This document shows, in pieces, positions 1 through 6,386 of a stretch of DNA of 9,984 nt. This stretch comes from a virus. Its lineage: Duplodnaviria > Heunggongvirae > Uroviricota > Caudoviricetes. Where the stretch lies: the IMG/VR virus record IMGVR_UViG_3300014515_000023. One strand, written 5' to 3'. The notes under the pieces were generated by a model that searched no databases, was not told the DNA's origin, and saw nothing but the letters and a program-made list of their open reading frames with translations. Made by a program: the position numbers and the translations under genes. How positions within the stretch are numbered: the stretch's first letter is position 1; every line of letters begins with the position of its first letter.

Positions 1-83
1 AACCTGAGGAGTAAGAGACCTGGCGGGGGAGAAATCCCTCGCCACCTCTGATGAGTCAGGCATCCTCAATGCACCCGCGCTTA

Positions 84-103
84 ACCCGCTTCGGCGGGTT
101 TTT
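84..103 (+). terminator. Rho-independent terminator hairpin upstream of the cassette
   Basis: Stem CCCGC (85-89), loop TTCG, stem GCGGG (94-98), followed by T5 (99-103). It is a near-identical direct copy of the hairpin at 1949-1968. Confidence 0.6.
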
Positions 104-118
104 CTAGCATCTATCTGG

Positions 119-147
119 TTGACAAAGTCTATGTTAAATGGAAATAT
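119..147 (+). promoter_or_regulatory. Putative sigma70 promoter for the two-gene cassette
   Basis: Perfect -35 TTGACA at 119-124, 17-nt spacer, weak -10-like AAATAT at 142-147. A second GGTTGACA lies at 148-155. RBS AAGGA at 166-170 sits about 10 nt before the ATG at 181. The -10 is weak, so this is tentative. Confidence 0.3.
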
Positions 148-180
148 GGTTGACACCAAAACAACAAGGATATTACGGTC

Positions 181-795
181 ATGCAGAATTTATCTCAACA
201 GTTGTTAGAAGCATATGACAAGGAGTGCCGCAAAGAGCTTTCGATCGCGTTAGCACAGGCTTATCTTCATTCGCATATGAAGGCAAAAGAGTTTGGTTCT
301 TTTTGGGCTCAAGCACAGTCATATTTGCGCTGGTTTTATGCCGATGCATTGCTTGAGAATGCGGCTAAGCGTGTGGGGCTGGATTTTGAAGTCGGTAGCA
401 ATGCTGCTAAAAATTGTAAACACATTGCGATTCACTCGAACAACTGGAAAATGACGGCACATCATTTATCGGGTAATGCGCCACTTCCTAAGCAGGCATT
501 GTATAGAGCTGTTTACGCTAATCAAAATTATGAATTGAATTTTGGGGATGAAAATGCCGACTCCCTGGATGGGAGAGCGTCTGGTGGACATGTTTATATG
601 TTACATGATGGCAGTAATCAGCACTTGTCCAAACTGAATTTAACTGTTCCTTCTTCGGATAATTACGGGATTCTTTATACTGAGTCTTTACCAATTATGA
701 CGATGGTAGAAGTTGAAGCAGAAAATGTGGATTCTGAGATTGAAGATAAAATCAAGATTCTTACCGAACAAATAATTAAATCACAGCAATCATGA
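181..795 (+). CDS. Hypothetical protein, 204 aa, first gene of the cassette; no domain recognised
   Basis: Clean ORF with an RBS and an upstream promoter-like site. Its stop TGA (793-795) overlaps the ATG (792-794) of the next gene, which suggests translational coupling. AT-richer than the flanking phage genes by eye. Acidic C-terminal tail. I recognise no catalytic motif. Confidence 0.75.
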   Translation: MQNLSQQLLEAYDKECRKELSIALAQAYLHSHMKAKEFGSFWAQAQSYLRWFYADALLENAAKRVGLDFEVGSNAAKNCKHIAIHSNNWKMTAHHLSGNAPLPKQALYRAVYANQNYELNFGDENADSLDGRASGGHVYMLHDGSNQHLSKLNLTVPSSDNYGILYTESLPIMTMVEVEAENVDSEIEDKIKILTEQIIKSQQS

Positions 796-1937
796 GCATG
801 AATATCGCACAAACACCATTTACTGATAAATCGTTTAATCCTCGTCGCCTTGAGGAGGCAAGAGAGGCAAAAGGGTTGACGATGGCTGAACTTGCCAGAG
901 TGCTCAATATTTCAAGACAAGCTATTTCGTCATTTGAGAAGGGGTTGAAGTCTCCCTCTGCTGATACACTTTCTGCAATAGCCAAGGTGTTAGGATTTCC
1001 AGAACGATTTTTCTTAGCCTCCAGTGCTTCTCCATCTCTGGAGGGGGCGATTCATTTTAGAAGTCGTTCAACTGCGACCAAAAAGGCTCGAGTTACAGGG
1101 AAAACACGTGGGCGTTGGGCGGCATTAATATTGGATGAATGTCTAAAATATGCTCAATTACCAGATGTGGTTCTGCCTGAATTCGATATTATTGATTTTG
1201 AGGTTCTGTCTCTATCTGATATTGAGGATATGTCCACCCAATTAAGGCGTTTTTGGGGGTTAGGTGATGGTCCAATACTCAATTTAACTAGACTTGTTGA
1301 AAATAAAGGAATCGTGGTTTCTCATTTACCTTCTGGTGAGAAAGTTGATGCCTTTTCGTTCTGGCATAATGGGCGGCCTTTAATTATGTTAGATAGCTCG
1401 AAGACGGCTGTTCGCATGCGATTTAGTCTTGCTCATGAACTTGGCCATTTAATTATGCATAGGGCAGTGGAGGATGACTACCTGAATGATAAAGAATTAT
1501 TCGACCTAGTGGAGTTGCAGGCCGATTATTTTGCCTCCAGCTTTTTAATGCCAGCCACGACTTTCGGGCGTGAATTTTATAGTCCAAATTTATCAGCGTT
1601 AGAACGATTAAAACTACGTTGGATTACATCTATCGGTAGTATTGCCATGAGGAGTCATAGCCTTAAGTTAATTAGCGATAATCAGAAAAGCTATATATTT
1701 AAGCAATTAGCGCCATTCCATCGTAGGGAGCCGTTAGATGATGCAATCCCAAAAGAAGAGCCTGAGTTACTTAATAAGTTACTTTTACTTCTTGATAAGC
1801 ATTCAATCATAAAGGTAACTGAGTTAACTGATATCTTTGCTCTTCCTTTAAATGAGTTATCTGCAATTACACGATTTAAAGAATCAGATATGATTCATTC
1901 TGACAATGTTATTTCATTTACCATAAAACAAAAATAA
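792..1937 (+). CDS. Fused XRE-family HTH and ImmA/IrrE-type (COG2856, peptidase M78-like) zinc metallopeptidase, 381 aa
   Basis: N-terminal segment (residues about 20-75, GLTMAELARVLNISRQAISSFEKG) matches the XRE/Cro-C1 helix-turn-helix pattern. HEXXH zinc motif HELGH at residues 215-219 (nt 1434-1448) sits in the context SLAHELGHLIMH typical of ImmA/IrrE peptidases. A C-terminal extension of about 150 aa has unknown function. Followed by a terminator. Confidence 0.85.
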   Translation: MSMNIAQTPFTDKSFNPRRLEEAREAKGLTMAELARVLNISRQAISSFEKGLKSPSADTLSAIAKVLGFPERFFLASSASPSLEGAIHFRSRSTATKKARVTGKTRGRWAALILDECLKYAQLPDVVLPEFDIIDFEVLSLSDIEDMSTQLRRFWGLGDGPILNLTRLVENKGIVVSHLPSGEKVDAFSFWHNGRPLIMLDSSKTAVRMRFSLAHELGHLIMHRAVEDDYLNDKELFDLVELQADYFASSFLMPATTFGREFYSPNLSALERLKLRWITSIGSIAMRSHSLKLISDNQKSYIFKQLAPFHRREPLDDAIPKEEPELLNKLLLLLDKHSIIKVTELTDIFALPLNELSAITRFKESDMIHSDNVISFTIKQK

Positions 1938-1948
1938 TTCTCATTCAT

Positions 1949-1968
1949 ACCCGCCTCGGCGGGTTTTT
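1949..1968 (+). terminator. Rho-independent terminator downstream of the cassette
   Basis: ACCCGCCTCGGCGGG followed by T5 then GTTTT. Differs by one nucleotide from the hairpin at 84-103. Confidence 0.6.
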
Positions 1969-2043: not shown

Positions 2044-2322
2044 ATGGCGCACGATACCAAATTATACAATTCTGATGATTCTGCCGTCTTTGCCAGCAGG
2101 CGCGGACGGTGTTTTCACGCATTCAAATCTGACTGGTACCAGCATCCCCCATGCACTGAAGAACAGGCCGAATGGCTCATTCAGTGTTACCGCAGGCGCG
2201 GATGCGAGGTTAAAAAAGCCCTTAGCCTCGACTACCGTCACTGGATAATCTCCGTCAGGCTCCCTTACTCCGAACGGCCAGCGCGTCCGTCCCGCACATT
2301 CCAGCAACGGATCTGGAGGTAA
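2044..2322 (+). CDS. Hypothetical phage protein, 92 aa
   Basis: ORF in the same orientation as the operon. Its stop TAA (2320-2322) lies immediately before the GTG start (2324) of the next gene and overlaps that gene's GGAGG RBS. No strong RBS of its own; the reading frame stays open upstream through the terminator, so the true start is uncertain. Confidence 0.4.
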   Translation: MAHDTKLYNSDDSAVFASRRGRCFHAFKSDWYQHPPCTEEQAEWLIQCYRRRGCEVKKALSLDYRHWIISVRLPYSERPARPSRTFQQRIWR

Positions 2323-4993: not shown

Positions 4994-6043
4994 ATGCTTA
5001 ATACTGTAAAAATATCCAGTTGTGAGTTAATCAACGCCGACTGCCTGGAATTTATCCGGTCGTTACCCGAAAATTCTGTTGACCTGATAGTCACGGACCC
5101 GCCGTACTTTAAAGTGAAGCCTGAGGGCTGGGATAACCAGTGGAAGGGCGACGATGATTACCTGAAGTGGCTGGACCAGTGTCTGGCGCAGTTCTGGCGG
5201 GTGCTGAAACCTGTCGGAAGTCTTTACCTGTTCTGTGGTCATCGCCTGGCATCTGATATCGAAATCATGATGCGTGAACGCTTCAGTGTGCTGAACCATA
5301 TTATCTGGGCGAAGCCGTCCGGACGCTGGAACGGATGCAACAAGGAAAGCCTGCGGGCGTATTTCCCCGCCACAGAGCGCATTCTGTTCGCGGAACATTA
5401 TCAGGGGCCGTATCGTCCGAAAGATGCCGGGTATGCGGCGAAGGGCAGTGCACTGAAACAGCATGTGATGGCCCCGCTGATTTCTTACTTTCGTGATGCG
5501 CGCGCTGCCCTGGGGATAACGGCAAAACAGATTGCAGATGCCACAGGAAAGAAAAACATGGTGTCGCACTGGTTCAGTGCCAGTCAGTGGCAGCTACCGA
5601 ACGAAAGCGATTATCTGAAATTACAGTCGCTGTTTGCCCGGGTGGCAGAAGAGAAACATCAGCGCGGTGAACTGGAAAAGCCCCACCACCAGCTGGTGGA
5701 TACGTATACGTCACTGAACCGGCAGTATGTGGAGCTGCAGAGTGAATATAAGCATCTGCGGCGGTATTTTGGTGTGACGGCGCAGGTGCCGTACACGGAT
5801 GTGTGGACACATAAACCGGTGCAGTTCTATCCCGGGAAACATCCGTGCGAAAAACCGGCAGAAATGCTGCAGCAGATAATCAGCGCAAGCAGTCGTCCGG
5901 GTGACCTGGTTGCAGATTTTTTTATGGGCTCAGGTTCAACGGTAAAAGCGGCACTGGCGCTTGGGCGTCGTGCGATTGGCGTTGAACTGGAGACCGGACG
6001 TTTTGAGCAGACAGTCAGGGAAGTTCAGGATTTAATCGTTTGA
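4994..6043 (+). CDS. DNA N6-adenine or N4-cytosine methyltransferase, beta-class motif order, apparently orphan, 349 aa
   Basis: Motif IV DPPY at residues 35-38 (nt 5096-5107) in the context SVDLIVTDPPYF. SAM-binding motif I FxGxG (FFMGSGST) at residues 309-316 (nt 5918-5941). Motif IV before motif I is the beta-class order. No restriction-endonuclease-like ORF is adjacent. Confidence 0.9.
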   Translation: MLNTVKISSCELINADCLEFIRSLPENSVDLIVTDPPYFKVKPEGWDNQWKGDDDYLKWLDQCLAQFWRVLKPVGSLYLFCGHRLASDIEIMMRERFSVLNHIIWAKPSGRWNGCNKESLRAYFPATERILFAEHYQGPYRPKDAGYAAKGSALKQHVMAPLISYFRDARAALGITAKQIADATGKKNMVSHWFSASQWQLPNESDYLKLQSLFARVAEEKHQRGELEKPHHQLVDTYTSLNRQYVELQSEYKHLRRYFGVTAQVPYTDVWTHKPVQFYPGKHPCEKPAEMLQQIISASSRPGDLVADFFMGSGSTVKAALALGRRAIGVELETGRFEQTVREVQDLIV

Positions 6044-6092: not shown

Positions 6093-6168
6093 GGCCCTTT
6101 AGCTCAGTGGTGAGAGCGAGCGACTCATAATCGCCAGGTCGCTGGTTCAAATCCAGCAAGGGCCACCA
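6093..6168 (+). tRNA. ileZ: tRNA-Ile2-like, anticodon CAU (lysidine type), 76 nt with encoded CCA
   Basis: Manual cloverleaf: acceptor GGCCCTT/AAGGGCC, D-arm GCTC-AGTGGTGA-GAGC, anticodon loop CTCATAA, T-loop TTCAAAT, then A-CCA. Closely resembles E. coli ileX as I recall it. A Met identity cannot be excluded from sequence alone. Confidence 0.85.
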
Positions 6169-6175
6169 TCACATA

Positions 6176-6252
6176 CCGCCATTAGCTCATCAGGAAAGAG
6201 CGCCAGCTTTCGAAGCTGGTTGCGCGGAGTTCGGGTCCCCGAAGGCGGTCCA
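6176..6252 (+). tRNA. tRNA-Arg, anticodon UCG, with non-canonical features
   Basis: Anticodon stem CCAGC/GCTGG is perfect with loop TTTCGAA (anticodon TCG). D-arm GCTC...GAGC. The acceptor stem has one A-A mismatch. The T stem has one A-C mismatch. The T-loop TTCGGGT has G at the usually invariant A58 position. Discriminator T, then CCA. Confidence 0.6.
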
Positions 6253-6265
6253 TTATCTGTATCCT

Positions 6266-6342
6266 GCGTTGTTAGCTCAGCCGGACAGAGCAATTGCCTT
6301 CTAAGCAATCGGTCACTGGTTCGAATCCAGTACAACGCGCCA
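6266..6342 (+). tRNA. tRNA-Arg, anticodon UCU, 77 nt with encoded CCA
   Basis: Perfect acceptor GCGTTGT/ACAACGC, anticodon loop CTTCTAA, T-loop TTCGAAT, discriminator G, CCA. Architecture is like E. coli argU. Confidence 0.85.
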
Positions 6343-6386
6343 CACTTATTTTCCCTGGCTCGCTTTTGCGGGCTTTTTTTAAATGT

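What the first reader, a model, noticed from the sequence alone, without database searches (positions are those of the whole stretch)
181..795. Orphan 204-aa protein with no recognisable motif as the candidate effector
I find no known catalytic signature in this protein: no HEPN Rx4-6H, no PIN, no nuclease or NTPase motif, and no predicted transmembrane segment. Its stop overlaps the start of the HTH-peptidase gene, which implies stoichiometric co-expression. Proteins in this position in two-gene defence or TA-like modules are usually the toxic or effector component.
Basis: inference. Interest (0 to 1): 0.6.

Follow-up and report, generated by a model that had tools for sequence, protein, structure and literature searches.

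The report
Prophage RosmerTA toxin gene (RmrT)
The 204-aa protein is not an orphan: it is a divergent member of a catalogued toxin family (RmrT) of the known RosmerTA toxin-antitoxin/anti-phage system, carried as a mobile two-gene cassette in a lambdoid prophage; how the toxin acts is still unknown.

The parts
84..103 (+). Upstream intrinsic terminator (3' end of the hok/gef unit). It is copy 1 of a 20-nt direct repeat, ACCCGCTTCGGCGGGTTTTT, that marks the left edge of the cassette.
   Evidence: Direct repeat found; 0 of 200 shuffles give two copies. The hairpin folds at -13.9 kcal/mol, z -3.1. Phages lacking the cassette match the window only up to about 103. The hokD CDS ends at window position 14 in phage Tritos.
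111..155 (+). The cassette's own promoter/operator element. It has two direct boxes, TGGTTGACA (116-124 and 147-155; 12-nt repeat, 31-bp spacing), flanking a -10-like TTAAAT (134-139). These are probably RmrA-HTH operators overlapping the promoter (inferred).
   Evidence: The repeat is. The element is conserved in six loci whose flanks are otherwise unrelated. Analogous double boxes spaced 31-33 bp occur in distant relatives. The exact box occurs only at these two sites in the window.
166..170 (+). Shine-Dalgarno-like AAGGA, 10 nt before the ORF1 ATG.
   Evidence: Read directly from the sequence.
181..795 (+). rmrT: the 204-aa predicted toxin of a RosmerTA module (the finding). The model has a long N-terminal helix (14-64), a beta-beta-beta-alpha-beta-beta-beta core (68-169), a variable linker (118-135) and an acidic C-terminal helix (185-203).
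792..1937 (+). rmrA: the 381-aa antitoxin/regulator. XRE HTH at aa 20-73 (nt 849-1010); M78/ImmA-IrrE Zn-peptidase at aa 170-287 (nt 1299-1652) with H215-E-L-G-H219 (nt 1434-1448) and a downstream ELQADYFASSFLMP motif.
   Evidence: Pfam; PADLOC RmrA 5.5e-102; 31% identity and E 4e-41 to the verified RmrA; 28% identity and E 7e-36 to RipB; motif positions.
1949..1968 (+). Downstream intrinsic terminator and copy 2 of the 20-nt direct repeat, marking the right edge of the cassette.
   Evidence: Terminator scan; repeat; fold -12.1 kcal/mol, z -2.9. Phages lacking the cassette resume matching at about 1949.

Best explanation
ORF1 is the toxin (RmrT) of a RosmerTA-type toxin-antitoxin/abortive-infection cassette that a stx-negative lambdoid prophage carries as an autonomous 'moron' between two terminators in its nin region. 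Shown here: ORF1 belongs to a catalogued RmrT sub-family; it is always followed by, and co-evolves with, an RmrA gene (XRE HTH fused to an intact M78 Zn-peptidase); and the pair moves as a unit with its own conserved promoter/operator. Inferred from published work on other Rosmer systems: RmrA keeps RmrT harmless after translation, and probably also represses the operon through the two TGGTTGACA boxes. Infection by another phage, or loss of RmrA supply or activity, would then free RmrT, which arrests or kills the cell and so blocks phage spread or stabilises the prophage. How this RmrT acts is the least certain step. The confident AF2 model has an alpha-beta-beta-beta-alpha-beta core resembling the PD-(D/E)xK restriction-endonuclease fold, but the family lacks the acidic catalytic residues and conserves N74, N78, (C79), H81, T92, R104, R109, N116 and H142 instead. 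My best guess is a soluble toxin directed at nucleic acid or the replication machinery that uses a remodelled endonuclease-like site, either for non-canonical (possibly His/Arg-based) cleavage or for binding. I do not think it is a membrane toxin.
Confidence: 0.78

Rival explanations
1. ORF1 acts like RipA, the pneumococcal Rosmer toxin. It would bind the hydrophobic pocket of the DnaN sliding clamp through a short linear motif and stall replication, with no enzymatic activity.
For: RipA/RipB is a Rosmer-family pair whose antitoxin is homologous to ORF2. RipA interacts with DnaN, and suppressor mutations map to the clamp's motif-binding pocket. The ORF1 family has a nearly invariant N-x-[D/S]-L-F segment at the end of helix alpha2, just before a variable low-confidence linker. 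Some members read QISLF, QLEFF or QLNMF, which match the clamp-binding consensus QL[S/D]LF as I recall it. RipA itself begins MLNQDLF. Loss of the canonical nuclease residues fits a binding role.
Against: ORF1 and RipA are not homologous (hhalign probability 0.08; different PADLOC profiles). Only 5 of 68 members have a strict clamp motif. The family consensus has N where the motif requires Q, and ORF1 itself has an interrupted NYELNF. An invariant Asn at a helix end followed by L and F may simply be structural. No interaction data exist.
Confidence: 0.1
2. The pair is mainly a regulatory switch of the ImmR/ImmA or CapH/CapP kind. ORF2 would be a damage- or infection-activated self-cleaving repressor, and ORF1 a non-toxic cargo, sensor or accessory protein rather than a toxin.
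For: ORF2 also matches capP (1.5e-21) and capH (1.7e-10) profiles. M78 proteases of this type cleave XRE repressors in ICEBs1 and Deinococcus. A conserved operator-like double box lies at the promoter.
Against: The prophage has its own CI/Cro switch elsewhere. The cassette sits at unrelated positions in different prophages. In the Rosmer systems that have been studied, the upstream gene is toxic and the HTH-peptidase neutralises it even when the toxin is driven from a foreign promoter. Strict co-occurrence with no orphan ORF1 is the pattern expected of a toxin.
Confidence: 0.08
3. ORF1 is a membrane-depolarising toxin like RmrT(D5) of Gordonia phage Kita.
For: The Kita RosmerTA toxin depolarises and permeabilises the membrane. 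ORF1 has a long N-terminal helix and a C-terminal helix.
Confidence: 0.03

Closest known systems
RosmerTA (RmrT/RmrA), Millman et al. 2022; verified system from E. coli OLC-716
   Same: Both are two-gene operons with the toxin first and the HTH + Zn-peptidase antitoxin second. ORF2 is 31% identical over its full length to the verified RmrA. ORF1 and all its relatives match PADLOC RmrT profiles. Both are found on E. coli mobile elements.
   Different: ORF1 has no detectable similarity to the verified 239-aa RmrT, which belongs to a different profile (PDLC03935/32, against PDLC03933/34/37/40 for ORF1). Defence and toxicity have not been shown for this sub-family.
RipAB (Spr1630/Spr1629) of Streptococcus pneumoniae, a Rosmer-family TA (PMC12795458)
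   Same: The architecture is the same. RipB and ORF2 are homologous (28% identity, E 7e-36). Both toxins are soluble, about 200-240 aa, and end in an acidic C-terminus.
   Different: RipA matches PDLC03931 only, and hhalign against the ORF1 family gives probability 0.08. RipA targets DnaN and needs ClpX for neutralisation; neither is known for ORF1. RipAB is chromosomal, with a 14-nt gap rather than an overlap.
PD-(D/E)xK restriction-endonuclease-like fold (NaeI, SwaI, ThaI, Hjc, RecU, EcoRV and others)
CapH/CapP and ImmR/ImmA (XRE repressor plus M78 protease regulators)
   Same: ORF2 carries both domain types and matches the capP and capH profiles. An operator-like element lies at the promoter.
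   Different: Here the two domains are fused into one protein, which is paired with a small upstream toxin-family gene rather than controlling a CBASS operon or an integrase. RmrA profiles score far higher (339 bits against 75).

Membership tests
RosmerTA (PADLOC / Millman 2022) | Antitoxin RmrA: an N-terminal XRE-type HTH fused to an M78 (ImmA/IrrE, COG2856) Zn-peptidase with HExxH | tested here: met
   Pfam HTH_3 2.4e-16 and Peptidase_M78 9.7e-19; RmrA PDLC03947 5.5e-102 over the full length; H215-ELG-H219 present; 31% identity to the verified RmrA.
RosmerTA (PADLOC / Millman 2022) | A small gene immediately adjacent and co-oriented with rmrA, forming a two-gene operon | tested here: met
   4-nt ATGA overlap. 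The same arrangement is found in 6 of 6 distant and all close relatives. Single promoter element and flanking terminators.
RosmerTA (PADLOC / Millman 2022) | The partner protein matches a catalogued RmrT profile | tested here: met
   ORF1: PDLC03933 7.5e-10, 03934 6e-8, 03937 1.5e-4, 03940 2.1e-3. All 68 of 68 relatives hit PDLC03933, best 1.8e-53.
RosmerTA (PADLOC / Millman 2022) | RmrT is toxic and is neutralised by RmrA | not testable with these tools
   Only indirect evidence: T and A co-occur in all 41 E. coli genomes with no orphan toxin. Published genetics concern other sub-families.
RosmerTA (PADLOC / Millman 2022) | The operon protects against phage infection | not testable with these tools
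   Prophage moron context only.
RmrT sub-family of the verified OLC-716 system (PDLC03935) | Sequence homology to the verified 239-aa RmrT | tested here: not met
   BLASTP E above 2; hhalign probability 0.3; the verified toxin hits PDLC03935/03932, not ORF1's profiles.
RipA-type (DnaN-targeting) RmrT (PDLC03931) | Sequence homology to RipA/Spr1630 | tested here: not met
   hhalign of A2 against the S. mitis RipA orthologue gives probability 0.08. RipA hits PDLC03931 only.
RipA-type (DnaN-targeting) RmrT (PDLC03931) | A clamp-binding linear motif (QL[S/D]LF-like) or a DnaN interaction | tested here: inconclusive
   N-x-D-L-F is present at positions 116-121 in 34 of 68 members, a strict Q-type motif in 5 of 68, and ORF1 has NYELNF. 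The interaction itself cannot be tested here.
PD-(D/E)xK nuclease superfamily | An alpha-beta-beta-beta-alpha-beta core fold | tested here: inconclusive
PD-(D/E)xK nuclease superfamily | Catalytic D (start of beta2) and (D/E)xK (beta3) | tested here: not met
   The conserved residues at these positions are N78, H81 and T92; no acidic residue or lysine is conserved there.
HEPN RNase toxins | A conserved Rx4-6H in an all-alpha domain | tested here: not met
   A literal R132-x4-H137 exists but lies in a variable, low-pLDDT linker, is not conserved, and the domain is beta-rich.
Membrane-depolarising RmrT (Gordonia phage Kita D5) | A predicted C-terminal transmembrane segment | tested here: not met
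   Highest KD19 mean 0.70; the C-terminal 35 residues have net charge -5.

The most novel reading that the evidence does not exclude
The PDLC03933-type RmrT proteins, including ORF1, would be a previously undescribed toxin class derived from the restriction-endonuclease (PD-(D/E)xK) fold. In this reading the acidic metal-binding site has been replaced by a conserved Asn/His/Thr/Arg constellation (N74, N78, H81, T92, R104, R109, H142), giving either a new metal-independent nucleic-acid-cleaving chemistry or a new way of binding the replication machinery, held in check by an HTH-metalloprotease antitoxin.
Probability: 0.3. Interest if true: 0.55.

Novelty: new member of a known kind. Interest (0 to 1): 0.35.

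Why it matters
RosmerTA is a widespread defence/TA system, but for most of its toxin sub-families the toxin mechanism and the role of the protease-antitoxin are unknown. This locus is an E. coli-native, prophage-borne example of a sub-family with no characterised member. It now has a confident structural model, a short list of conserved candidate active-site residues, and a defined promoter/operator element. All of these can be tested directly in E. coli K-12. If the remodelled endonuclease-like site proves functional, it would add a new toxin chemistry or target to the Rosmer family. If not, this remains a routine defence-system annotation.

Tried and rejected
1. AF2 with the 9-sequence alignment A1 gave pLDDT 40 and was discarded. 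Only the 68-sequence alignment A2 gave a usable model.
2. The search for related loci with A2 failed because no stretch was conserved enough. The afdb50 fold library was unavailable.
3. The word-indexed homologue search found only 10-12 clusters, both with ORF1 alone and with A2. The listing of cluster members gave no organism names for the distant members.
4. Pfam and NCBIfam scans of all 68 members gave no recurrent family. PDB sequence searches were empty.
5. HEPN, Walker A and TM readings were rejected.
6. Homology to the verified RmrT and to RipA was tested and rejected.
7. The clamp-binding-motif idea was quantified and downgraded.
8. With one mismatch allowed, the TGGTTGACA box is no more frequent in the window than chance (4 against 2.6 expected). 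Its significance rests on cross-locus conservation.
9. The terminator repeat is not a universal bracket of the slot: phage vB_EcoS-689R5 has only one copy.
10. Rousset 2022 contained nothing on this toxin type, and Piotrowski 2009 is not held.
11. The reading as the prophage's own immunity switch was rejected, because CI and Cro are elsewhere and the cassette's position varies.

Full report
**1. The observation**

The window has an ATG-initiated ORF at 181-795 on the + strand, encoding 204 aa. Its TGA (793-795) overlaps the ATG (792-794) of a 381-aa ORF at 792-1937. Both genes are AT-rich (GC 0.40 and 0.395, GC3 0.37 and 0.32), against 0.475-0.53 for the neighbouring phage genes.

ORF1 is a real gene. 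Compared with orthologues in four other loci, synonymous sites are saturated (pS 0.77-0.87), while pN is 0.15-0.23 for the three closer ones. The start position is conserved.

There are no Pfam or NCBIfam hits and no relative with a solved structure by sequence. There is no TM segment (KD19 maximum 0.70) and no Walker A motif. A literal R132-x4-H137 does exist, but it lies in the variable, low-confidence linker and is not conserved.

**2. ORF1 is not an orphan**

PADLOC profiles identify the pair as the RosmerTA system. ORF2 matches RmrA PDLC03947 at 5.5e-102 over its full length. ORF1 matches four RmrT profiles of matching length, the best being PDLC03933 at 7.5e-10. PHROGs already has a family for ORF1 (phrog_35814, function unknown, 3.3e-146).

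The word-indexed search of 5.8 billion proteins found only 10 clusters, from Salmonella, Yersinia, E. coli and unnamed metagenomic assemblies, at 65-100% identity. An exhaustive HMM search of 1.84 billion cluster representatives found 78 relatives, mostly 190-240 aa. I aligned 68 full-length members as A2, reaching down to about 16% identity. Every one of them matches RmrT PDLC03933, the best at 1.8e-53. ORF1 is therefore a divergent branch of a catalogued RmrT sub-family.

**3. What the literature says about the system**

- Millman et al. defined RosmerTA as a Zn-peptidase antitoxin paired with a toxin of unknown function. They verified defence for a system from E. coli OLC-716 and could not transform a delta-rmrA construct.
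- Ernits et al. describe RmrTs as diverse toxins paired with a common protease-antitoxin. They showed that the Gordonia phage Kita RmrT depolarises membranes through a C-terminal membrane segment.
- Maziero et al. 2025 showed that pneumococcal Spr1630/Spr1629 (RipAB) is a Rosmer-family TA. Its toxin interacts with the DnaN clamp, with suppressor mutations in the hydrophobic pocket. Its antitoxin acts in trans and depends on ClpX.

**4. Direct comparisons with the studied systems**

ORF2 is 31% identical to the verified RmrA over its full length (E 4e-41). It carries H215-ELG-H219 and the downstream ELQADYFASSFLMP motif.

ORF1 shows no similarity to the verified RmrT (BLASTP E above 2; hhalign probability 0.3).

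To test RipA, I took the ripA cloning primer from the paper's primer table and fetched the locus from Streptococcus genomes. I then read the 243-aa RipA orthologue and the 383-aa RipB. RipB is 28% identical to ORF2 (E 7e-36). RipA matches only PDLC03931, and hhalign against A2 gives probability 0.08. The verified OLC-716 toxin matches PDLC03935/03932.

So at least three RmrT groups that are unrelated in sequence share a homologous antitoxin. None of the studied toxins informs ORF1's mechanism by homology.

**5. Genomic association and mobility**

- For six distinct distant relatives whose contigs extend past the gene (nine loci), the next gene begins within -26 to +13 nt and is an RmrA homologue, with E from 1e-14 for truncated fragments to 3e-99.
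- The close homologues keep the 4-nt overlap.
- T and A diverge in parallel: 73/65/65/40% identity for T against 80/70/70/44% for A.
- The cassette occupies different positions in different prophages. In the window and in phage Tritos it lies in the nin region, between hokD and a DUF968 gene. In Yersinia it lies directly after the cI repressor and before N. Elsewhere it lies after a primase gene, between the replication genes and rusA/Q, and between the head protease and terminase genes.
- In a related phage the same hok-to-DUF968 slot holds a different 130-aa ORF.
- Among 5,426 complete E. coli genomes, 41 carry the cassette. The toxin and the antitoxin queried separately each give 41 genomes at 99% identity or more, so there are no orphan copies. 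All copies are annotated 'hypothetical protein'.

**6. Regulatory anatomy**

The cassette lies between two intrinsic terminators that are copies of one 20-nt sequence, at 84-103 and 1949-1968. The phages that lack the cassette match the window only outside these points.

Directly upstream of ORF1, a roughly 45-bp element (111-155) is conserved in six loci whose flanks are otherwise unrelated. It consists of two direct TGGTTGACA boxes 31 bp apart, flanking a -10-like TTAAAT (TAAAAT or TATAAT in other loci). More distant relatives have analogous double boxes spaced 31-33 bp. One of these boxes, AAAATAGGTTTACA, resembles the window's AAATATGGTTGACA.

I infer that this is the cassette's own promoter overlapped by RmrA-HTH operators. 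That is not shown. No Shine-Dalgarno sequence is evident before ORF2, which fits translational coupling.

**7. The toxin's fold**

With A2 as input, AF2 gives a confident model: pLDDT 86.4, pTM 0.81. Its elements are a long helix (14-64), three strands (68-73, 80-86, 89-95), a helix (107-117), a variable linker with pLDDT 54-66, three strands (136-169) and an acidic C-terminal helix (185-203).

The model's alpha-beta-beta-beta-alpha-beta order fits that core. However, the family conserves no acidic residue or lysine at the beta2/beta3 positions. Among the 51 most distant sequences, the conserved residues are N74 (50/51), N78 (48), C79 (34), H81 (46), T92 (48), R104 (44), A106, R109 (46), N116 (43), F121 (46), Y/H137, H142 (45), P157 (50) and E181 (41).

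I conclude that ORF1 probably has an endonuclease-like fold with a remodelled site. I could not inspect the coordinates, so whether these residues cluster together is unverified.

**8. The clamp-motif lead**

The segment N116-x-D/S-L-F, at the end of alpha2 and just before the flexible linker, resembles the beta-clamp-binding motif QL[S/D]LF (the consensus is recalled from memory). RipA also begins MLNQDLF.

Quantified, [QN]xx[LMF]F occurs at this position in 34 of 68 members. A strict Q-type motif occurs in only 5. The family consensus has N rather than Q, and ORF1 itself reads NYELNF. I keep this as a low-probability rival explanation.

**9. Verdict**

The protein belongs to a known, catalogued system, so this is a new member of a known kind.

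What remains open is how this RmrT sub-family acts and how the HTH-peptidase controls it. The model, the conserved-residue list and the operator element make both questions testable in E. coli.

**Confidence**

| Claim | Confidence |
|---|---|
| ORF1 is the RmrT toxin of a RosmerTA cassette | about 0.78 |
| It uses a remodelled endonuclease-like site on nucleic acid or the replication machinery | about 0.3 |

Noticed in passing
window 111-155; also L014 4935-4980, L016, L018, L004, L012/L013, L007, L010, L008 upstream of the toxin start: A conserved double-box element (two direct TGGTTGACA boxes spaced 31 bp, flanking a -10-like hexamer) lies directly upstream of rmrT in loci whose flanks are unrelated. 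Distant relatives have analogous direct repeats spaced 31-33 bp. It is probably the RmrA operator/promoter. Direct rather than inverted repeats are unusual for an XRE-type HTH.
   Followed up: partly
window 84-103 and 1949-1968: The two terminators bracketing the cassette are a 20-nt direct repeat (ACCCGCYTCGGCGGGTTTTT, 95% identical), placed exactly where cassette-less phages stop and resume matching. They may mark a recombination junction for cargo exchange. Phage vB_EcoS-689R5 has only the downstream copy.
   Followed up: partly
window 1-14 and upstream (L001 5859-6014): The window opens in the last codons of a hokD/gef type I toxin gene. The RosmerTA cassette therefore sits immediately downstream of another toxin-antitoxin locus. 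In phage vB_EcoS-689R5 the same slot carries an unrelated 130-aa ORF with no PADLOC hit.
   Followed up: partly
window 6093-7094: Three tRNA genes (Met-CAT, Arg-TCG, Arg-TCT at 6093-6342) are followed by two full-length copies of the sRNA STnc100 (6417-6607 and 6885-7094; 136 and 165 bits). They lie in the ORF-poor stretch between Q/methylase and the sialate-esterase gene. From memory, this is the position that stx genes occupy in Stx phages. Here no long ORF lies in that stretch, and the best database matches are Stx-converting phages.
   Followed up: partly
L032 3874-3894 (S. mitis RipA N-terminus): RipA, the DnaN-targeting Rosmer toxin, begins MLNQDLFDS. This is an N-x-D-L-F string identical in form to the nearly invariant motif of the unrelated ORF1 family, and similar to a clamp-binding motif. 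It may be coincidence or convergence; the RipA paper does not appear to discuss it.
   Followed up: partly
L014 3689-6757 (Yersinia prophage): In a Yersinia lambdoid prophage the same cassette lies directly downstream of the cI (Peptidase_S24) repressor gene and before N. From memory, this is the position that rexAB occupies in lambda, which would suggest expression in the lysogen.
   Followed up: no
L008/L009 326-2586: Upstream of a distant RmrT/RmrA pair lie a 509-aa protein with faint HD / HD_assoc hits and a 241-aa protein with no domain. This could be another defence system in a small island.
   Followed up: no
window 4994-6043: The 349-aa N6/N4 DNA methyltransferase matches PADLOC MTase_II at 4.4e-167, and no restriction-enzyme family was detected among the neighbouring ORFs scanned. 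It looks like an orphan phage methylase downstream of Q.
   Followed up: no
window 2044-2322: The 92-aa ORF just downstream of the cassette is annotated 'toxin to Rem' in one phage record and 'hypothetical protein' in Tritos. It has no Pfam or PADLOC hit.
   Followed up: no
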